Positions 25,665 to 56,816 of a stretch of DNA of 64,000 bases are shown piece after piece. The stretch lies in IMG/VR virus record IMGVR_UViG_3300010262_000138, positions 1 through 64,000 of that record. The stretch is one strand, 5' to 3'. The notes under the pieces are model-generated. The model was not told where the DNA came from. It saw only the letters and a program-made list of their open reading frames with translations, and searched no databases. Made by a program: the position numbers and the translations under genes. The stretch's first letter is position 1. Every line of letters starts with the position of its first letter. Origin of the DNA: a virus (lineage: Duplodnaviria; Caudoviricetes).

Positions 25665-28600
25665 TTATATGATCCCTTTCTTCGCGTTTCCACGAATCCC
25701 TCTGTTGGATGCGGTCTTATTAAGCTGTTCAACAACCCTGTCTGCAATCTTTCTGATAGAGGGCACTACACTTTCATCGAGAGAACCCGCTACCTGAATA
25801 TTGATTAGACCGCCATCAATCGAGAGCCCAGTAGACAGAGATCCGATTCCGTTGATGCCCCTAACCGAATTGAGTTTAGGGAGCAGGGAAGACACAACGG
25901 GAAGATTTTCTACAAAATCCAGCAGCTTACGTCCTTGCATAGACGAAAGCACAACTTCCGATCTTGTAGAGCTGCCATGAAGCATCGCGGGGCCGGTAGA
26001 ACTTACAACGCCTCCCGAAGCAAACCCAGGCAAGCTTCTCGCCCCGGAAGAAAATCCCGGATATGTTCTTGGGTCTGTAATATGAACAGTACTATAATCG
26101 TAGCCGCTCCCGGATAAATCCTTATACTTTACATTGTTGTATTTGCTGTAATCATTAACGCGGTCGATAGCATCAGCCGCTTCTTCGGCCTTGCGGATAG
26201 TAGTATCAAGAGAGTCATTTACTCTGTTTACCCCATCCTCAACCCTTTGCGTCGCGCCGGCTACTGAATCCATAGCAACGGATACATTCCCGGTTTCAGC
26301 GCACATATCGCAAGTAGCCGCAATCAGGTATTGGAGGATATCATAGACTGTTTTTTCTCCAAATCCGAAGTTTTCCAATGACTTATAAGCGTCATTCCAG
26401 ACGTGGATTACTTCGTCCCTTGTCATTCCTCCATATGTCGTGCAGAATTCAATCAGGCTGTTGTAATATTCTGACGACCGTTCCTGAATCATGTCGATTG
26501 CTTCAATACGCATCGAACCTTCTTGGTCTAGAGCTTCTTCAATCAGCCTGATTTTTCTTTCGTAGTATTCTTCGTCAGCCTTGTATTCTTCTTCAAGATT
26601 GTCAAGCTTTTCTTTATGAATCAGCTCATAACGCTCATACTCATCGTCCAGAAGGTCTGTAGCCTGATCGTATGCGCGGTCTGACTGATAATCTTCCAGA
26701 TCAGAATATTTGCCTGCAAGTTGCTCCTGAAGCTCAAGACGCTTCTTCATCGCGTCGGAGGAATCGTCGTTTTGAATCTCTAAGAGTTTGCTTTCAATAT
26801 CAGCAATCTCTTTATTCTTTTCCGCAAGCTGCTTTTGATAGTCGTTTTCGTCCTTATCGCGTTCCAGCGCCTTTTTGCGAGCGTCAATTAAACGCTTATA
26901 GGCGTCGATTTGATCCTCAATCGCATCTTTTTCTTCGTCATATTGCTTTTTGATACGGTCAAGATCGTCTTGGTAAGCAGACTTTTTTGCTTCCAGACGA
27001 TGTTTGATCATCTTAACGGTAACGTCAATAAGATCTTCAATAGCACTTTGTGCGTCCTTAGCCGCTTCTTTCATCTTTTTAGCGGCTTCTTCCGCAGCCT
27101 TTGCGGCAGACTCGGCGGCTTTCCCGCCGTCCATTACTGAAAGGGAATAAGTCCCGACAGAGGCACGCGCGAGGTCAAATAACTTCCTCTGCTTCTCTAC
27201 ATGAGCATTGAGCTTTTCAACTGCGGCATCGAATTCGCTACCTTTATCTGATACAGCCGCATTAGCAATAGCCTGTTTCCATGAAGCATCCGCGTCAGCA
27301 AGACGTGCACTGGCGAGATCGTAAGTTGCATCCTTCAAGTAGCTTGCGGCTTTTTCTTGATCCTCAAACGTCTTGAGAAGATTAGTAGCCTCCTGCAGAT
27401 AAGCGGCTTCAGCATCATCAATTCTTGCATAAGCAAGATCGATCATGGCGTTTTTGTTTAGTACAAGCTGACCGTTTTCCGTCTGTAAACACGCGAGGTA
27501 TTCCGGCTCTAACTCTAAGAGAGATTGTAGTGTGTCGAGGGTTAGATAACCCTTGGTGTTATACTCTTCAACGGCTCCAGAAAGGGAGGTATAGGCAGAC
27601 TGTAGGGAGTCAATTGCGTCATTGGCGTCTTTAATAGAAAGAGCGGCAGCTTGTGCGGCGACAGAAACATCACTAAACGCCTCAGAAGAAACACTATCAC
27701 CAGAACCCACCACTTCTAAAAATCGATCAAGAGCATCGTTTGCGAAATCAACCATCTCTACGTCTGATTGCGTGACCGGTTCTATTTCTGCAAGTTGGCG
27801 ATACCAATTTGCGACTACGGGGAGGCTGGCCGCAAGATTATCATACTCTGACTTTTCAGCATTAGTAAGTTTAATGCCTTCTTCCTGTTTTTGCAGAAGT
27901 TTATCATATCTATCTACACCTAGATCAAAATATTCGACGGCCGAAACAGGCGATGAATACCCTTGCAGCTCTGCAAAGAAACCCTGTTTAAATCCCTTTG
28001 CTGTCATAACCCGATTGTTAATACCACTACGCAGATATCTGGTATTATCGAGCCCTTGAATATTGTCCTGCATTTGAGCGTAAAGATTACGCGCGGCGCC
28101 GTATTGTTCTTGTGAGGCTGTTACTTTTTCAGCCTTTAACAAGTTAATTCTACGCTCTAATGCATCGTTAGATTTCTGAAGATCAGAAAGTTCTTTTTCT
28201 TCTACAAGGGATGGCAACGTCCCAAGAGACTGAATCTCCTTAATTCTGTCCTCATTTATTTTAATCTCATCGCTAACCCGTTTAATTTCAGATGCTAAAG
28301 ATTCTACTTGTTCCTTTGACTTCGCATAAGACTCAAACGCTTCTTCTGCGCTCTGTGAAAAATAGTTAAACCCTTTAATTGCGAGGTTTAAAGCCCCAAT
28401 AACAATAGCAACCTTTGAAAGAGCCGATAAGGCAGAGAATGCCTTACCAAGAGAACCAACAGCTCCTTTCAGACCTTTAGTGGCATAACCCTCCGCAATA
28501 ATTGCTGCAGCGTTTTTCTTCGCGGCTGAAGTATTTAGAATTTTCTCAGCCGTATTGGCCCTTTCTGCATCAGATAGCCCTGTATTCGCTAATGCTTCCT

Positions 28601-28762
28601 CTATTTTTGCGCGAGTTAGAGCCTTGGAAGATAACATCTGTTGGTTGCTAGCCATTACATTGACGATTTGTTCTTTTGATAGTCCCGCTAAAGCGGTTTG
28701 CAAAAGCGCGATATCATCGCACCCGGCGCCTACAATACTAAAAAATTGTTTAATTGCCAAAT
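25665..28762 (-). CDS. Tape measure protein, exon 2 (C-terminal ~1030 aa)
   Basis: Ala/Glu/Lys-rich coiled coils and a GFASGG...AMLHG...E.VL C-terminus; no RBS and an in-frame stop 6 codons upstream of the TTG. Confidence 0.85.
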
Positions 28763-28782
28763 CTTTCTGTGTGTGTTAAAAT
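28754..28782 (+). promoter_or_regulatory. sigma-A promoter driving the antisense cargo, straddling the proposed 3' splice site
   Basis: TTGCCA(28754-59)-N17-TAAAAT(28777-82) with extended -10 TG; first cargo ATG at 28808. Confidence 0.65.
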
Positions 28783-28807
28783 AACAGTATACTAAACGAA
28801 TGGGGGA

Positions 28808-29047
28808 ATGGATTCAATGGAATGTCTGCTTGTTGCAATCACTATTGTTTTTGTTTTGATAGTTATAATGGGTCTTATTGTATCTGTGTTGTCCGAATTA
28901 GGATTTACCGACTTTCCGCCTCTGCTCATCCTTGCACTTGCCATAATAATATTTGTTGTCTGGTTTTGTAATAGTATTAAAAAAGATATAGAGAATAGAG
29001 AGAAAATAAAAAAAGAGATAGCGGAAAGAAATATGAAACGAAAATAA
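28808..29047 (+). CDS. Intron cargo: two-TM small membrane protein
   Basis: Two hydrophobic helices and a basic tail; directly after the promoter. Confidence 0.65.
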   Translation: MDSMECLLVAITIVFVLIVIMGLIVSVLSELGFTDFPPLLILALAIIIFVVWFCNSIKKDIENREKIKKEIAERNMKRK

Positions 29048-29137
29048 CTAATATCCGGATAACATAACACTCCTAATAGTGTGTAATACACTGTATAGAT
29101 TTAGTTTTTAAATAACGTATTTGAAAGGAAGGTAACG

Positions 29138-29896
29138 ATGAAGTTTTATAGAATAGTAAGTTTGGTTGCAATCTCGCTTATTATCGCATCGTGCAGTAAT
29201 GAATCTCTGAACGAATCATCTTCTACATCGTCCAGTGTAAACACAATGGTCTTACAAAATAACTCTGACTCAACAGAATTGTCCGCTGCTTCTCAGATCA
29301 ATGAAGCTTTCAGCGATAATAGTGCCGTAGAACCCGGCTTAAATAGTAATGTCGCTACTTCCTCAGAACACACCCCTGCCGAAGGTCCAACATCGTCAAA
29401 AATTGAGATTAGCGAGAGCAATATCGTAGAATCTCCCCATAAAGCGAAACCTGAAAAGACAGAAAAGATAGAAAAGCACTATTTCTGTTATTGTGACACA
29501 GAAACTATAGTTGAAATTCCGGACATCAAAAAGCCGTTCCCGGTTAATCAGGTTACAGGGTTTGAATTTGATGGATATTTCTGCGATAGTGAAAGCGTAA
29601 AGTCATCGGGGAATGAGAGAAGGTATTTCCATCATATCGAAGATGAACTCAACTTGGTTTTTGCCGCATTTGATGAATACGATAAAGTAGATCCAAGCAT
29701 TCAAGAACTGTTAGATAAACGTTGTAAATCCAATGTTCTTTATGTTGTATGGAACATATGGGATTCGAATATCGATATAATGACTCCGGCAAAAGGGGAG
29801 GGTTATACGATGAGAGATGTCCCGGTAGGCGCAAAAGGCGTCACTCTTTACGATATGGAAGGGAATATACTCGACCCACATGATGATATATTCTGA
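29138..29896 (+). CDS. Intron cargo: lipoprotein (Ser-rich linker plus C-terminal domain)
   Basis: RBS aaggaagg; lipobox LIIAS-C; Ser/Asn/Glu-rich spacer. Confidence 0.75.
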   Translation: MKFYRIVSLVAISLIIASCSNESLNESSSTSSSVNTMVLQNNSDSTELSAASQINEAFSDNSAVEPGLNSNVATSSEHTPAEGPTSSKIEISESNIVESPHKAKPEKTEKIEKHYFCYCDTETIVEIPDIKKPFPVNQVTGFEFDGYFCDSESVKSSGNERRYFHHIEDELNLVFAAFDEYDKVDPSIQELLDKRCKSNVLYVVWNIWDSNIDIMTPAKGEGYTMRDVPVGAKGVTLYDMEGNILDPHDDIF

Positions 29897-30507
29897 TGGG
29901 GAGCGAAACAAATATGATTGAATTATCCACAAATAATTCGCTAAGAGGTCATTTATCACCACATACTAAGACAAGACCTATCATGAATGGATTTTGCCAA
30001 TCAGGAAAAAGATATCTCATTTTTCACAAAATCTGCCGTTTGCGTAATCGCTTGATATCATTGGTAGTTACTAGGTTAATATACTGCGAAAATAAGCTAT
30101 GCGACGATGGGGATTTTACAATAACAGATCTCAAAAAGGATATTCAATATCTTATTTCAAAAGCGGAAAAATATGAACCATGTGTTTACCCTTGCCGGCC
30201 AATGGTGAAAGAGTTATTAGAAATACCGCAAGATCAACTTTTTAATGGTAATACCATTTCCTTTTCAACACCATATTTATTACGTGCCCAAACCTCACAA
30301 TATTACGGGTACGGAGATACTTCAAGATTTGCTATAATTGGAATAACTGTTGATAATTATGAATCAGAAGTATATTGTAACTGCGATCCAGAAAACCCTG
30401 ACATAGAAATTTTTTATGAAAAAGATGGGAATAAAACGGTTAATTTAGACTTTGTTGGCCCATGTTATATTACATATATGCTGAGAGCGCTTAATGATCC
30501 TATCTAA
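29896..30507 (+). CDS. Intron cargo: hypothetical protein (start uncertain)
   Basis: ATG overlaps the lipoprotein stop (TGATG); AT-rich. Confidence 0.5.
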   Translation: MGSETNMIELSTNNSLRGHLSPHTKTRPIMNGFCQSGKRYLIFHKICRLRNRLISLVVTRLIYCENKLCDDGDFTITDLKKDIQYLISKAEKYEPCVYPCRPMVKELLEIPQDQLFNGNTISFSTPYLLRAQTSQYYGYGDTSRFAIIGITVDNYESEVYCNCDPENPDIEIFYEKDGNKTVNLDFVGPCYITYMLRALNDPI

Positions 30508-30594
30508 TAAAAATAGGATTAGTGGGATGACTTTATGAGACAGGTTGAACTTTTGTGAACCAATATATTTATTAACCAGAACGGAGGTATTACT

Positions 30595-30801
30595 ATGGCA
30601 TTATTGGTAGCACTGGGAGTGATCGGGATCTTTGCGATGGCGCTCTACATCGGGGCGGCGGGGCTCTTTGGGCCGGTTATAGGCATTATCATCGTAATAG
30701 CGGGCGTTGTGTGGGCCTGTAAAGAAACGCCGGAGCAGAAGATGGTCCGGGAGGCAATCGAACGGAGCAACGAGAAGCTTTATGGGAGGAAGCACCCGTA
30801 A
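30595..30801 (+). CDS. Intron cargo: two-TM small membrane protein
   Basis: RBS GGAGG; two hydrophobic helices. Confidence 0.7.
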   Translation: MALLVALGVIGIFAMALYIGAAGLFGPVIGIIIVIAGVVWACKETPEQKMVREAIERSNEKLYGRKHP

Positions 30802-30854
30802 ATGATAATCGGAGGGTATATCACTCCGTAATTAACCAATATTTGATACTCACA

Positions 30855-31121
30855 TTATTCATCGGTAAGTGTAATTCCGATTGGTTTGCACCCTGTTAAA
30901 CGCAAAAAGACATACTCCATATCGTCCACATAAACTTCTGGTGTCTCATTTCCGTTTAAGTCCCATGGGAATATTGGATCTGGGATAGACAGTCCCAATT
31001 TTTTGGCAATTCTTTTAACATAAAGACGATCTAATGTAACAATTGGAATATTTGTTTTAGCAGAAAGTTTAATTAACGAATAGGTTTTTCCGTTACCACG
31101 AGGTCCATAAAACAGTTTCAT
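30855..31121 (-). CDS. Intron cargo: minimal P-loop protein
   Basis: RBS GGAGG; Walker A GPRGNGKT and Walker B-like VYVDD in 88 aa. Confidence 0.7.
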   Translation of the reverse strand: MKLFYGPRGNGKTYSLIKLSAKTNIPIVTLDRLYVKRIAKKLGLSIPDPIFPWDLNGNETPEVYVDDMEYVFLRLTGCKPIGITLTDE

Positions 31122-31163
31122 AATTTACCTCCAAAAAAAATAGGATAGAAAGGAATTTTTAAA

Positions 31164-31475
31164 ATGACTATCAATCATGTGATAGCAATTAAGTTAGAGC
31201 ATCTTGTTTGTGAGATTTGTGAGTGTGAAAGATTCGGTATTTGTGGGATTGCTAGCGCATCAAATTTTGAAGTGCGTCCAATCGAGGCGGCAATACTGTG
31301 TTTTGCTAAATTATCGCAATATCCACATAAAAGCAAAGAATGTACCGTCAAAGCAGAAAACTTTTTAGACAAATGGCACACTATATTTGAATACCCAAAA
31401 GAAAACCCAAGACATACGTGCGAAGAATACCTGTCTGAATTAGAACAAGCCGTAAAATGTTTTAACCAACATTAG
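31164..31475 (+). CDS. Intron cargo: hypothetical protein
   Basis: RBS AAGGA; stop ends 2 nt before the repeat arm at 31477. Confidence 0.65.
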   Translation: MTINHVIAIKLEHLVCEICECERFGICGIASASNFEVRPIEAAILCFAKLSQYPHKSKECTVKAENFLDKWHTIFEYPKENPRHTCEEYLSELEQAVKCFNQH

Positions 31476-31499
31476 AACTGTTTTTTTTAGCACACACAG

Positions 31500-31866
31500 C
31501 AACAAACAGGCTCCTATCAGCCTGCTAGATTTCGAGCACCTCTTTACCGTCACACCTGTATCGTCGGCGCGGCGGCGGGGGATTATGCTTCTGTGAACGT
31601 CCTTCATGACATCCGTTCCCCAACGGAGCCAGACTCGTTGCCTCGTCCGTTTTTAACGTGAAGTTTCGCTGCGGATAGACTAACACCTCAAAGTGATAGG
31701 GAAGTGCTTCATCGTCCCCGACTGTGCTCGGTTGTTGCCACCGAGCTAATTTAGTCCCTCTTTATTTATAGACCCGCATCACCATATCTTGTTCAGAGCA
31801 CGATTACGCTCCGTCCTTGATACGGCTAGGCACAATAATACAATCTGTCGCCCGTCATTTCGGGCC
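31500..31866 (-). ncRNA. Non-canonical group I-like ribozyme core
   Basis: P3 GGGACUA(31758-52)/UAAUCCC(31585-79); Q-like UAUCCGCAGCGAA; R-like ACGUUCACAGAAGCAUA; P8; S-like AAAGAGGUGCUCG; P9 hairpin 31505-31526. Confidence 0.7.
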
Positions 31867-33739
31867 AACCCAGGTCTCCAAAAATTTTAGCTGTTCCAAC
31901 GCCAAGACTTGATTTTTTAATCATGTTTATTGCGTTGGAAGCAGTATATATAGATGTACTCAACAAAGCAATTTTCGCTATAAAGCCATCGCCAATCGTT
32001 GATACCTTTAGGATGGCAGTACCAGCGTCAATTAAAAAACCAACAAAATTACTGTTTATGATAACATCAGCAAAATGTTCAAACGCGGCTGCGTTTTCTT
32101 TGAGTTTAAATTCCAAACCTTCTTGGTACGCACTAAACTTTTGCATCGCAGTACCAGCCGAATTTGCCGATACAGCGGAATACTCCATAGCCTTATCAAG
32201 ATTTTCAAACAGAACAAAGACGTTTTCGCGCTGTCTTACTCCGCCCAGTGTGGTCGCAATGGCGCTCTTCTCCGTTTCCTTAAGAGATTCCCACCTTCGA
32301 CCTGTTTCTTGAATAACTTCATTGAAATCTCTGAATTGACCCTCTTGATTTCTTAAGGATATTCCAACGGCATTCAGAGCTTTTTCAAAATCATTGAGCG
32401 GGTCTCCGTCATCATCAATCAACCTACCAAGTTTTACATTACCATATCTTGCAAATATCGTTTTAAACGCTTCACCAACGGTGCTCATATCTCGCTGAGT
32501 AACTTCGCCAACCGCTGCAAGATAGCCAAGCAGATTATCCATATCTACGCCTGCTTGACGTGCGGAGTTAGCAGTACGCGCCATTGCCTCTGCAAGACCT
32601 CCGGCGCTGACGGCGGCTTTAATGTCAATTCCGGTTAGCTTATCTACGATACCCATAGCGTTTGATGCCTCAACCTTATAGCCCTTCATGGCTGACGTAA
32701 GGTATTTTGATGCTTCTGCCGCGTCTACCATGCCAACGATGCTTAATACCATCGAGTCTTTGATTAAAGTGTTAGTATCGTCAAGATTATAGCCCTGTCG
32801 TTGCCACTCTACTGCCGATTCAGCCACAGCGGTTGTGGTGCTCCCCAGCTCGATAGCCATCCTATTGTAAACATCAATGAGCTCTTCTGCGGATTCCTTT
32901 GTGCCTCCTGTTACAATACGCAAATCGACAAGAGCTTTGTCTAACTCAAACGCTGTATCAATTGCCTTATATACCGACGTAACAAAACCAGTTGTTATCG
33001 CGCTTGAAGCTAAATAGACAGAAAATGTCTTAATCTTTTCTCCAAGGTATGTAAAAGTATTTCCGCCCTCGTACCCCGCAGACTTCATTTCTGCCTTAAA
33101 TGATTTAATCAGAACCTGAGCTTCTTTTAGATTACCTAAATCCAGTTCTGAAAAAACTTCATTGATTTTTACCGAATTTAAATCAACCGCAGACGCTTTT
33201 ATCGTTTTTAGGTATTTTTCAAAGTCTGCTTTTGTCTGCTTAATAGAAGCGGAATCGGAACTGCTCTTAAAAGCGTCACGAGCAGCCTGGGTTTCTAACG
33301 CAACTCGCTCTTTTGCAAGTTTTTGTCTTTCTTTTTCAGCAGCTATTGCTTTACTTTGCTGCTCCTGCTCAATTCTCGCATTTTCAAGCATCTGACGCTT
33401 TAATTGATCAGAAAATCTCTTCTGCGCAGCTTCTCGCTTTTGAATATCCCAATCAATTTGGTTTACAACATTTTTGGATGCATTAGTAGAAGCGCCTGAT
33501 CTGACTGATTGATTAGCCGATGATGCTGAAGATGTTAAGCTAATAGAAAGAGTTTTTGATAAATCCTTTATTTGTGCCTTAATTGAACTTGTATCAATGC
33601 TTAATTTTATTTTGGGCGGGTCTCGCCCTATCTCCTGAGCAATTTTTTCAAGTTCTTTGCGTATTAGTTGCCCAGAGGCGCCGGAAGCCGTACTGCCTCC
33701 CTCTACGCCAACTAATACTCTAATATCTGGTTCTGCCAC
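31867..33739 (-). CDS. Tape measure protein, exon 1 (TP901-family core)
   Basis: ELDKAL..LRIVTG, A.ELGSTT..VAES..EW.RQGY, VGEAFKTIFAR motifs; ORF runs on to a stop at 31826 inside the intron. Confidence 0.9.
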
Positions 33740-54918: not shown

Positions 54919-55169
54919 CCTTTATACTCCATGTCACCATAGAGAGTAGACTATCTCTTCACCCCATAGGGTGCCCGGCGCTTCCACGCAGGAATTTCAC
55001 CTGACATGTACTTCCTTTCGGAATAGTCGTTACACGTTCTCAAAAGAGCTTCGCACGGTATTGTCTCGGGAAGAGTTCTACCGTTAGCACAGCAAAGCTG
55101 CACACCCCGCAATTACGGGTTCACCGGGTTTTCACCGCGCCGTTTCCGACGCGGGGGACTGCTTTATCA
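54919..55169 (-). ncRNA. Group I self-splicing intron (251 nt, ORF-less)
   Basis: P1 GGAU|U..AGUCC with U-G wobble; P3 CCCGGUG/CGCCGGG; R GUGUAACGACUA; S GAAGAGAUAGUCU; terminal G; splicing restores NGAD-KDGD. Confidence 0.92.
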
Positions 55170-56816
55170 ATCCGCTCCATTCAATGCATGGCAGGTCATA
55201 TCATGGCAGTTTAAAAGCGTAACTGTATTCATATACCGATACCAATAGTTTGCCTCATCAGACCTGTGTATCTTCATCTTCCTGATATTATTGTGATTGC
55301 TCATTGGGGCTCGGAAACATACAACATCATCTGTCCCTTTATCGTGCCAATATCTGTTATATAGCTCCCCGGCTTTCAGCAGCCCTGTCACCGGTAATCC
55401 CCAAATGCTCTGGCACAACGCAATTGGATCGCCGCATATTACAGAGAAGTTACCCTCTACCTTAACCTTCCCGAACTTCGACTCATTTACCCTCTTCTTA
55501 ATCAGCGTCTTAATCTGATTGCGTACAAAGGGGTCTCCAAGCATCCTTCGGTCTGCCTGCAGAGCCGTAACCCAATCAAAATCTCCGCTGAATGCATTCT
55601 TCTCTGTAATACCAGTACCCCGTAAAAAGAGAAGGGTACGGTAATAATCGTCACCCATTGCATCGCTGAGTTCGTGCAGGGTAGGGGAGACCAACTCATT
55701 TATCTCATCATCGCTAAGATCATAGCTCTGAATGAACTGATAATTAAGGCGCCGCTCTTTATCAAGCTCTCTCGAAGTCACTTTTGTAGCTGAAAAGGTA
55801 TATCCATTTACACTGCAATTTTGCAGATAATCATCGATATTTGCGTAAGAATCCCATAATTTCAGCATAGAAGCAGTCAAAATCAGCTCAATTTCGTTGA
55901 TTTTGTGCTTATTTCCCCAGATGTCTACCGCCGCATCCTTTTGTGCTATTGATGACGCAAATTCATGAAAATCAAATGTAAATGCCATACCTTTACAAAA
56001 ACTATTGCGCAGACAAAGCCCAGACGGAAGATAGTCAAGCTGAAGCTCTTCCTGCCATCGCATAGCTAGGGCGGGGGACATCACTCCGTATCCATCGCTA
56101 TCAATCAACTCTACGTCTCCGTTTTTGATAACTTCCATACTTGGTTCTCCGGTAGGTGAGTCCTTCAGAAGAATGTAATCCGAGTTGAAGTGAACAACGC
56201 AGTCGTCTACGACAAGAACCCCTTTTGGTATACTGAGAGGGGTTGATGCGGAACAAATCAAGGCGCGATATGCCTCTAGCTTCGCCGGCACAAACTCTTT
56301 ATCCATGCGTCGCCCATTGTCCGCTCGTCGCCGCAGTTCTTCTAAAAGTTCCGCTCCATTCCTTGTATACTCTGAAATAAATACAACGGTTGAGTTTTTT
56401 ACGCCCCCGGTAGTCCCGACAAATCGTTGGTAGGTCATTCCATTGACCTTAAACCCTTTACACGCCCGGAGAAAATCCTTATTGGAATTACACACCAAGC
56501 AGATGTATTCCGGTACGAATTGGATCTCATTCAATGCAGAATACAGCAATTTTATGCGGTTTTCCACCTCTTTTGAACGTTTTTCTCTCCGCAATTCACG
56601 TAATTCTGTGCGAATTTTCTCGAATTTATCCAGATTTTTATGAAGATCAATACCGGCTATCTGCTCGATCATACGGATACAGGTGCTTTCCGCGAGTGAA
56701 ATCACAGCCCCGGACCTCTTGGCGTCGCGCAGCGAGATATTGTAATCCCAGTTGGACTTCCTCAATTCTTCGGTGGATAACTTCAAAACCTGCCTGAGAT
56801 AAGAATACTGCTTTAT
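55170..56816 (-). CDS. yonO: YonO-like single-subunit RNA polymerase (RdRP-related two-barrel), exon 1
   Basis: DG.G..SP, R..F.KGM, LT.SM.KLW..Y, LNYQF.Q, R.P, LNGAD; start probably ATA 56816. Confidence 0.85.

What the first reader, a model, noticed from the sequence alone, without database searches (positions are those of the whole stretch)
28754..28808. One stretch does triple duty: TMP exon-2 start, 3' splice-site stem and antisense promoter for the cargo
Seen: on the + strand TTGCCA-N17-TAAAAT with an extended -10 TG. The -35 lies in exon-2 codons (Leu-Ala) and the -10 lies within the stem arm, 25 nt before the first cargo ATG. The last + cargo ORF ends 2 nt before the other arm. Inference: cargo is expressed by host RNAP in the lysogen, antisense to the late transcript, and any gene captured between the arms gets a promoter automatically, an integron-like logic without DNA-level disruption of TMP function.
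Basis: partly seen in the sequence, partly recalled or inferred. Interest (0 to 1): 0.7.

Follow-up and report, generated by a model that had tools for sequence, protein, structure and literature searches.

The report
Cargo promoter across intron splice junction
A 29-base stretch at the far end of a cargo-carrying, self-splicing-type intron in a gut phage's tail tape-measure gene also reads, on the opposite strand, as a near-consensus bacterial promoter aimed at the intron's backward-facing passenger genes. It stays fixed in relatives while the genes on both sides of it change.

Summary
The motif is real. TTGCCA-17-TAAAAT with an extended -10 TG lies at 28754-28782 (+). Sites this good are rare: 5 on both strands of the 64-kb window against about 1 expected.

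In relatives with about 40% exon-2 identity and a different first cargo gene, a 30-nt island (27/30 identical) runs from the first base of the -35 to just past the -10. The 17-nt spacing and the TG are kept.

On the minus strand the same bases are the 3' end of a 3,110-nt group I-type intron in the tape-measure gene. This is inferred, not shown. It has a 5' ribozyme, a 9-13 bp clamp stem around 2.7 kb of cargo, a terminal G at 28758, and exon 2 starting at 28757.

The -35 therefore straddles the splice junction.

The promoter-proximal cargo differs between lineages, so "any captured gene gets a promoter" is partly supported. No integrase or att-like sites were found.

Splicing constraints alone could explain the conservation, and there are no TSS or strand-resolved RNA data.

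The layout is IStron-like with accessory genes in place of an IS. Earlier notes of this scan report cargo-carrying tape-measure introns in other genomes, and one note reports a promoter across the 3' splice site. Those notes are unchecked.

The parts
28754..28759 (+). -35-like hexamer TTGCCA. On the minus strand it is the last two intron bases (terminal G at 28758) plus the first four exon-2 bases.
   Evidence: Invariant in L004, L011 and L016.
28760..28776 (+). 17-nt spacer. It holds AAATC (minus strand: the GAUUU of the intron tail), three variable bases (TTT or ATG), and the core of the clamp arm, which carries the extended -10 TG at 28774-28775.
28777..28782 (+). -10-like hexamer TAAAAT (TAATAT in the L004/L011/L016 lineages). 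It lies in the distal AU part of the 3' clamp arm.
28767..28781 (-). 3' clamp arm of the intron RNA. Its 9-nt core is complementary to 31491-31499, followed by an AU extension.
   Evidence: The core is conserved in all lineages.
31485..31499 (-). 5' clamp arm, directly after the P9 hairpin of the ribozyme.
   Evidence: A C-to-U change in L011/L017 turns a C.A mismatch into a U-A pair.
31500..31867 (-). Structured RNA at the 5' end of the intron (group I-like): P1 3' strand and guide sequence at 31826-31836, then helices I label P2, P4-P6, P7, P8 and P9.
   Evidence: 96-100% identical in lineages whose flanks diverge. Seven one-sided changes keep their pairs. MFE z-score -2.8. No Rfam hit.
31868..33739 (-). 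Tape-measure exon 1. The inferred 5' splice site follows U31868. The last 9 exon bases are conserved across lineages, and 6 of them pair with the guide sequence (P1).
25665..28757 (-). Tape-measure exon 2. It is inferred to start at G28757 (GCA = Ala). Its first 4-5 bases pair with 31832-31836 (P10).
28783..30858 (+). Variable cargo: a 76/79-aa membrane protein, a 252-aa lipoprotein, a 203-aa protein and a 68-aa membrane protein. Relatives carry a 313-aa SHOCT-like gene here, with or without 104-aa and 604-aa genes.
30859..31484 (.). Constant cargo module: an 88-aa Walker-A mini-protein on the minus strand (30855-31121) and a 103-aa Cys-rich protein on the plus strand (31164-31475).

Best explanation
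Bases 28754-28782 belong to two overlapping signals on opposite strands.

Minus strand (RNA). They are the 3' end of a 3,110-nt group I-type intron (31867 down to 28758) that interrupts the tape-measure gene. The ribozyme sits at the intron's 5' end. A clamp stem (31485-31499 with 28767-28781) loops out 2.7 kb of cargo and brings the distant 3' end to the core. The intron ends in GAUUUG, with the terminal G at 28758. One guide sequence pairs with the last six bases of exon 1 (P1, with a U.G pair at the splice site) and with the first 4-5 bases of exon 2 (P10). Splicing would give a continuous protein reading ...FGDLG|AIKQFF....

Plus strand (DNA). The same bases form a sigma-A-type extended -10 promoter. 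Its -35 straddles the splice junction, and its TG and -10 lie in the clamp arm. Host RNA polymerase would start near 28789-28790 and transcribe the passenger genes antisense to the late tape-measure transcript, most plausibly in the lysogen.

Because the block is part of the intron's fixed end, whichever gene sits next to it is expressed.

Shown: the motif, its rarity, its conservation, the clamp complementarity, the variable cargo, intact exons, and unsplit homologues.

Inferred: splicing, the exact splice sites, promoter activity, and its timing.
For: Motif and rarity.

Conservation:
- A 30-nt island (27/30 identical) runs from the first -35 base to one base past the -10. Exon 2 beside it is about 30-50% identical, and the first cargo gene is unrelated.
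- The scan tool finds the same site in L004 and L011.
- The -10 changes from TAAAAT to TAATAT. That keeps T1, A2 and T6 but breaks a clamp pair.

Need for a promoter: there is no other promoter candidate between exon 2 and the first cargo gene, and there is no + strand gene upstream for 3 kb.

Negative control: a second intron of a relative, with a co-oriented ORF, ends in the same GAUUUUG tail but has no promoter-like site.

Distant relatives: more distant split tape-measure genes in IMG/VR also carry a TG-extended -10 site 20-45 nt before the first antisense gene next to exon 2. The hexamers differ and the site does not overlap the junction.

Intron:
- Unsplit homologues align across the gap.
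- A 389-nt block is 96-100% conserved between divergent flanks.
- Seven one-sided substitutions preserve pairs.
- There is a single in-frame P1/P10 solution.
- The rules match a junction-verified intron in L012.
- The same phage has two Rfam-detectable group I introns.

Lifestyle: a large serine recombinase and a tyrosine recombinase are present in the record.
Against: - There are no TSS, strand-specific RNA or splice-junction reads. No contig joins across the insert, and the RNA-library contigs give no strand.
- Every conserved base of the island can be explained by intron function alone.
- Rfam's group I model does not match the ribozyme even at E = 10.
- There is no compensatory double change, because the sequences are 98% alike.
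- The P1/P10 solution arises in 5.6% of shuffles.
- P3 is weak and competes with the base of P2.
- A second conserved promoter-like site, at 31817-31844 (+), has no obvious gene behind it. Conserved intron sequence can therefore imitate promoters.
Confidence: 0.55

Rival explanations
1. The promoter look is a by-product. The block is conserved only because it is the intron's 3' clamp arm, terminal G and P10 region. The cargo is transcribed from elsewhere, for example from internal promoters.
For: All conserved bases have an RNA role in my model. Another conserved promoter-like site inside the ribozyme has no gene behind it. There are no expression data.
Against: - A 10/12 match plus TG at optimal spacing is rare.
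- It sits exactly where the first antisense gene needs a promoter.
- The -10 keeps its key bases while losing a clamp pair.
- The tail of the co-oriented L012 intron gives no such motif.
- Distant relatives have other promoter-like sites at the same place.
Confidence: 0.25
2. There is no intron. A moron island with its own promoter was inserted into the tape-measure gene, and the gene now works as two polypeptides, or the prophage is defective. The inverted repeats are scars of insertion or recombination.
For: There is no Rfam group I match. AGACCUGG at the 5' edge and AGAUUUGG at the 3' edge resemble a short direct repeat. No joined form was seen.
Against: - The second half has no convincing ribosome-binding site or start, and gene callers disagree on its start.
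- Both halves stay open in several diverged lineages from at least 10 studies.
- A 389-nt non-coding block is held at 96-100% identity with pair-preserving changes.
- A guide sequence pairs with both exon ends in frame.
Confidence: 0.1
3. The motif is a chance match in AT-rich DNA.
For: The number of weaker promoter-like sites in the region equals the shuffle expectation.
Against: The quality and position give about 5e-4. The motif is conserved across lineages.
Confidence: 0.03

Closest known systems
IStrons (CdISt1, BcISt1 and relatives; Tourasse et al. 2014, PMC4227781)
   Same: A group I ribozyme sits at the 5' end. [quoted passage not shown] The insert's gene content varies.
   Different: The cargo here is not an IS200/605 or IS607 transposon. 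There are no TnpA or TnpB genes. Instead there are small membrane proteins, a lipoprotein and unknown genes, mostly on the opposite strand, with a promoter-like site in the 3' repeat. The ribozyme is not found by RF00028, the model that was used to find IStrons.
Group I introns TMP-IVS1/2/3 in tape-measure genes of Bacillus cereus-group prophages (Tourasse and Kolsto 2008, PMC2504315)
   Same: Self-splicing-type introns in prophage tape-measure genes, with the guide sequence adapted to the site.
   Different: In what I read of that paper there is no multi-gene antisense cargo and no promoter over the splice site. I did not compare the sequences.
Phage morons: accessory genes with their own promoter and terminator, expressed from the prophage (my own knowledge of the lambdoid-phage literature, not checked here)
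   Same: Passenger genes lie inside a late operon, are read by host polymerase, and have envelope-type products (weak PHROG matches to 'moron' categories).
   Different: These genes are placed inside an essential gene and made harmless by RNA splicing. The promoter belongs to the fixed end of the carrier rather than to each gene.
Integron platform (Pc promoter next to attI; my own knowledge)
   Same: A fixed promoter followed by exchangeable genes, with variation at the promoter-proximal end.
   Different: No integrase, attI or attC-like repeats were found. The breakpoints look like ordinary recombination in conserved flanks.

Membership tests
Sigma-70/sigma-A promoter | -35 and -10 hexamers near consensus, 16-18 nt apart, with an optional TG one base before the -10 | tested here: met
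   TTGCCA-17-TG-n-TAAAAT, 10/12
Sigma-70/sigma-A promoter | Transcription starts 6-9 nt after the -10 and depends on the hexamers | not testable with these tools
   Only unstranded contigs of one RNA library cover the cargo.
Sigma-70/sigma-A promoter | Conserved in homologous loci | tested here: met
   The -35, the spacing and the TG are invariant, and the -10 keeps T1, A2 and T6 in L004, L011 and L016. This is confounded by RNA constraints.
Group I intron | Match to the family covariance model (RF00028) | tested here: not met
   No hit at E up to 10. The model also misses a junction-verified ORF-bearing intron and the nearest ribozyme relative, so the test has low power here. It does find two other introns of this phage.
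Group I intron | 5' exon ends in U paired with G of an internal guide sequence (P1), and the same guide pairs with the 3' exon (P10) | tested here: inconclusive
   There is a single in-frame solution: 6-bp P1 ending in U.G and an adjacent 5-bp P10. 5.6% of shuffles do as well. The exon bases involved are the ones conserved across lineages.
Group I intron | Intron ends in G | tested here: inconclusive
   G28758 fits the frame and P10. The GAUUUG tail is shared with the verified L012 intron. It was not shown by RNA.
Group I intron | Conserved core P3-P9 with the P7 guanosine pocket and the P3/P7 pseudoknot | tested here: inconclusive
   By eye there are P/Q/R/S-like motifs (P4 as UGCGGG with UCCGCA; R as GUUCACAGAAGCA; S as AAGAGGUGCUC). 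P7 has an extra bulged A, and P3 is only 4-5 bp and competes with P2. No compensatory changes are available.
Group I intron | Self-splicing or in vivo splicing | not testable with these tools
   No joint across the insert appears in the runs laid.
IStron | Group I core followed by an insert flanked by inverted repeats, with the 3' splice site after the 3' repeat | tested here: met
   The description is taken from PMC4227781.
IStron | The insert is an IS200/605 or IS607 element with transposase or TnpB ORFs | tested here: not met
   Pfam and PHROG scans of all cargo proteins found no transposase or TnpB.
Integron | IntI integrase with attI and attC recombination sites | tested here: not met
   No recombinase lies in or beside the insert. 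The recombinase genes of the record lie at 78 kb and 111 kb. There are no repeated attC-like elements between the cargo genes.

The most novel reading that the evidence does not exclude
This intron family is a general 'safe harbour with a built-in promoter'. The fixed 3' end of a self-splicing intron in an essential late gene supplies host-polymerase expression to whichever accessory genes recombine in next to it. Prophages can then trade lysogenic-conversion or defence genes without ever disrupting the tape-measure protein. In this lineage the promoter, the clamp stem and the splice junction are compressed into the same 30 bases.
Probability: 0.4. Interest if true: 0.75.

Novelty: new variant of a known kind. 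Interest (0 to 1): 0.6.

Why it matters
If the promoter is active, a ribozyme and a promoter share the same bases on opposite strands. That would explain how mainly antisense passenger genes inside an essential phage gene are expressed in the lysogen while the host gene is restored by splicing in the lytic cycle.

It would extend the IStron idea (an intron that makes an insertion harmless) from transposons to exchangeable accessory genes. It would also give a simple rule for finding expressed cargo in many gut phages.

For annotation, tape-measure genes split by several kilobases should not be called pseudogenes. The small genes inside them are candidates for superinfection-exclusion or defence functions.

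Tried and rejected
- Rfam scans of the insert, the whole window and relatives found no intron family for this element.
- BLASTN of the ribozyme against GenBank phages found nothing.
- Exact and gapped DNA patterns from the ribozyme and from the promoter block found nothing in IMG/VR, JGI metagenomes or GTDB genomes.
- The search for related loci with exon 2 found no close relative.
- The 79-aa, 88-aa and 103-aa cargo proteins have almost no homologues outside this phage group.
- Read laying showed no joints, and no cover of exon 2 in the RNA library X19. That absence is not evidence.
- I first placed the 5' splice site at the identity boundary (31877). I rejected this because divergent exons could not pair with one fixed guide sequence.
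- A group II reading was rejected: no domain V or VI follows the cargo.
- An intein reading was rejected: the insert is not in frame.
- RNAduplex on long flanks of distant relatives was uninformative.
- The L012 second intron shares no sequence with this ribozyme.

Full report
**Observation.** The + strand reads TTGCCA (28754-28759), 17 bases, then TAAAAT (28777-28782), with TG at 28774-28775. In 27500-33000 the number of promoter-like sites equals the shuffle expectation (13 found, 13.7 expected), but this site is the best of them. Sites with at least 10 of 12 matches plus the TG number five on both strands of the 64-kb window. A first-order Markov model gives 1.1, which is roughly 5e-4 for any given 60-nt interval and strand. 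The first + strand ORF starts 25 nt after the -10 (ATG 28808). The ATG at 28817, preceded by GGGGGA, is the start that gene callers use. The inverted repeat 28764-28784 / 31482-31502 is real.

**What surrounds it.** The window is part of a 112-kb IMG/VR virus record. The record carries a large serine recombinase and a tyrosine recombinase, so a temperate lifestyle is plausible. On the minus strand a tape-measure gene is in two open pieces, 33739-31826 and 28760-25665. Full-length homologues of 1,400-2,500 aa align across the gap without needing extra residues. Between the pieces lie about 390 nt of G+C-rich non-coding sequence and then six ORFs, five on the + strand. The same DNA occurs in pig and bovine gut metagenomes of about ten studies.

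**Relatives.** Exact-protein look-ups of the 103-aa cargo protein and its cluster members brought in contigs of several lineages. In L004, L011, L013 and L016 both exons are strongly diverged. Upstream of 31877 exon 1 is visibly divergent. Exon 2 scores 4-12 identities per 20-nt window. Yet a 389-nt block from 31877 to the 5' arm at 31489 is 96-100% identical. In L017 the neighbouring 103-aa gene product is only 61% identical while the block stays at 96%, and identity drops immediately after the arm. This is the signature of a functional RNA or mobile-element end.

Of the substitutions in the block, nine fall in helices of my model. Seven of these keep the pair (G.U to A-U, C-G to U.G and the like), and two open terminal pairs. 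The rest lie in loops. No double compensatory change exists, because the sequences are 98% alike. The fold is more stable than shuffles (z = -2.8).

**Is it an intron, and where are the splice sites?** Rfam's group I model does not match, even at E = 10 on 461 nt, nor does it match in relatives. The same model does find two other introns of this phage (54927-55209 minus strand, and 95234-95548 of the record). The negative result has low power, however. A second insertion in exon 1 of L012 has a junction fixed at the protein level by comparison with the uninterrupted L011 (...AFAG|TRQQ...). That exon ends in U and the intron ends in G. A guide sequence pairs with five bases of exon 1 and, directly beside them, six bases of exon 2. 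Rfam misses this intron as well, and it also misses the nearest ribozyme relative in IMG/VR.

I applied the same rules to the window. A systematic search over all U and G positions, all guide positions and all frames gave one in-frame solution:
- Exon 1 ends at U31868, and CUGGGU pairs with GCCUAG at 31826-31831.
- The adjacent AUUGU (31832-31836) pairs with the GCAAU that follows G28758.

The product reads ...FGDLG|AIKQFF.... Shuffles reach this quality in 5.6% of trials, so the pairing alone is only suggestive. But it explains two otherwise odd facts. Identity between lineages extends exactly nine bases into exon 1, covering the P1 strand. It also extends four bases into exon 2, covering the P10 strand.

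By eye the core has P/Q/R/S-like elements and a P7 in which the usual GACUA/UAGUC is replaced by G-A-(A)-GCA with UGCUC. The IMG/VR subfamily L023-L041 has a clean GAGCAC/GUGCUC at the same place. P3 is weak. I therefore call the element group I-type, with membership not proven.

**Layout.** The 5' arm follows the P9 hairpin. The 3' arm lies 9 nt before the terminal G (28759-28766 lie between). The 9-bp core of the stem is kept in all lineages. One C-to-U change in L011 and L017 repairs a C.A mismatch. A ribozyme, then an inverted-repeat stem around a large insert, then the 3' splice site is the published layout of IStrons (PMC4227781). Group I introns in prophage tape-measure genes are known (PMC2504315). 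I found no paper describing accessory-gene cargo with an antisense promoter in such an intron.

**The promoter question.** Between the window and L004/L011/L016, the only conserved bases at the exon-2 side are a 30-nt island, 28754-28783 (27 of 30 identical). It begins with the first base of the -35 and ends one base after the -10. The three differences are two bases in the spacer and the fourth base of the -10. The scan tool calls the same site in L004 and L011.

The A-to-T change in the -10 keeps T1, A2 and T6 but creates an A.A mismatch in the clamp. That speaks slightly for selection on the DNA signal. No other promoter candidate lies between exon 2 and the first cargo gene, and the 3 kb upstream are antisense to exon 2, so the + strand genes need a start here. 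The verified L012 intron carries a co-oriented ORF and ends in a similar GAUUUUG tail, yet it shows no promoter-like site on the opposite strand.

Among 80 tape-measure loci from IMG/VR, about 25 are split by 1.3-7.7 kb containing antisense ORFs. Several unrelated lineages (L044, L088/L097, L089, L090, L093, L096, L099) have a TG-extended -10 site 20-45 nt before the first antisense gene next to exon 2. The hexamers differ (TTGACA, TTGCGT, TTGATT...). In the L085-L097 group the site lies just inside the clamp arm rather than overlapping the junction. A promoter at the intron's 3' end thus recurs, while the tight overlap seen here is a feature of this lineage.

Against this, each conserved base also has an RNA role. 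A second conserved promoter-like site at 31817-31844 (+) has no gene behind it. No RNA data resolve strand or start. One metatranscriptome has identical contigs in the cargo and in exon 1, but they cannot show transcription.

**Cargo exchange.** The segment 30859-31500 (the 88-aa gene on the minus strand, the 103-aa gene, and the arm) is constant. The segment 28790-30858 is replaced in L004/L016 by one 313-aa SHOCT-like gene, and in L011 by that gene plus two more. About 40-50 nt of leader after the -10 remain alignable at about 65% identity. The right breakpoint is at the stop of the 88-aa gene, where a 16-nt motif is duplicated in the window. No recombinase or att-like repeat is associated with the cargo. 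Pfam and PHROGs give only weak hints: a membrane protein, and a lipoprotein resembling a superinfection-exclusion family at E = 0.002.

**Earlier notes of this scan (unchecked AI notes).** The same reader described the intron, its odd P7 and the mosaic cargo on this window. Other windows carry similar 'cargo-carrying tape-measure introns' in at least 34 genomes, with IStrons named as the closest known system. One note (e1-5936431) reports a promoter across the 3' splice site in another genome with different hexamers. I could not read that DNA. My IMG/VR survey is an independent partial check of the general pattern.

**Verdict.** The triple-duty reading is the best explanation, at about 0.55. 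The main rival is that the promoter look is a by-product of splicing constraints, at about 0.25. The element is a new variant of a known kind: an IStron-like group I-type intron with accessory cargo.

Noticed in passing
L012:2333-3692 (minus strand): A second 1,355-nt insertion lies in tape-measure exon 1 of a relative and carries a co-oriented 345-aa ORF with no Pfam hit. Comparison with L011 fixes the junction. The exon ends in U, the intron ends in G, and P1 and P10 are clear. Rfam does not see it.
   Followed up: partly
window 54927-55209 (minus strand) and G000:C1:95234-95548 (plus strand): Two further group I introns of this phage match RF00028 at 37 and 42 bits, below the gathering score of 50.
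   Followed up: partly
window 31817-31844 (+): A promoter-like TTGATA-16-TACAAT (10/12) lies antisense within the P1 loop and guide-sequence region. It is conserved in L004 and L011 and has no obvious gene downstream.
   Followed up: no
window 30855-31121 (minus strand): An 88-aa protein with a Walker-A-like GPRGNGKT motif and a strong GGAGG ribosome-binding site is co-oriented with the intron and present in every variant (84-100% identical). It matches PHROG 1828, of unknown function. It might be the intron's own factor.
   Followed up: partly
L023-L102 (IMG/VR loci): About 25 of 80 related tape-measure loci are split by 1.3-7.7 kb of mostly antisense ORFs. Many of the first cargo genes are small zinc-ribbon proteins, each preceded by a TG-extended -10 site.
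   Followed up: partly
window 30810-30825 and L004:4674-4689: The 16-nt motif GGAGGGTATATCACTC is duplicated at the right-hand cargo junction of the window. In relatives it directly abuts the end of the 88-aa gene. It may mark a recombination breakpoint.
   Followed up: no
run X16, contig laid at window 28979-29014: A contig fragment carries the same arm and -10 sequence (TGTGTGTTAAAATA), but behind a different -35 (TTGATT, also 17 nt away) and with different flanks. It may be a third lineage. It could not be fetched.
   Followed up: no
L004:3590-3662: In the 313-aa lineages the promoter is followed by a conserved GGGGAG ribosome-binding site and a three-codon mini-ORF before the real gene. 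This may be a remnant of an earlier first cassette.
   Followed up: no
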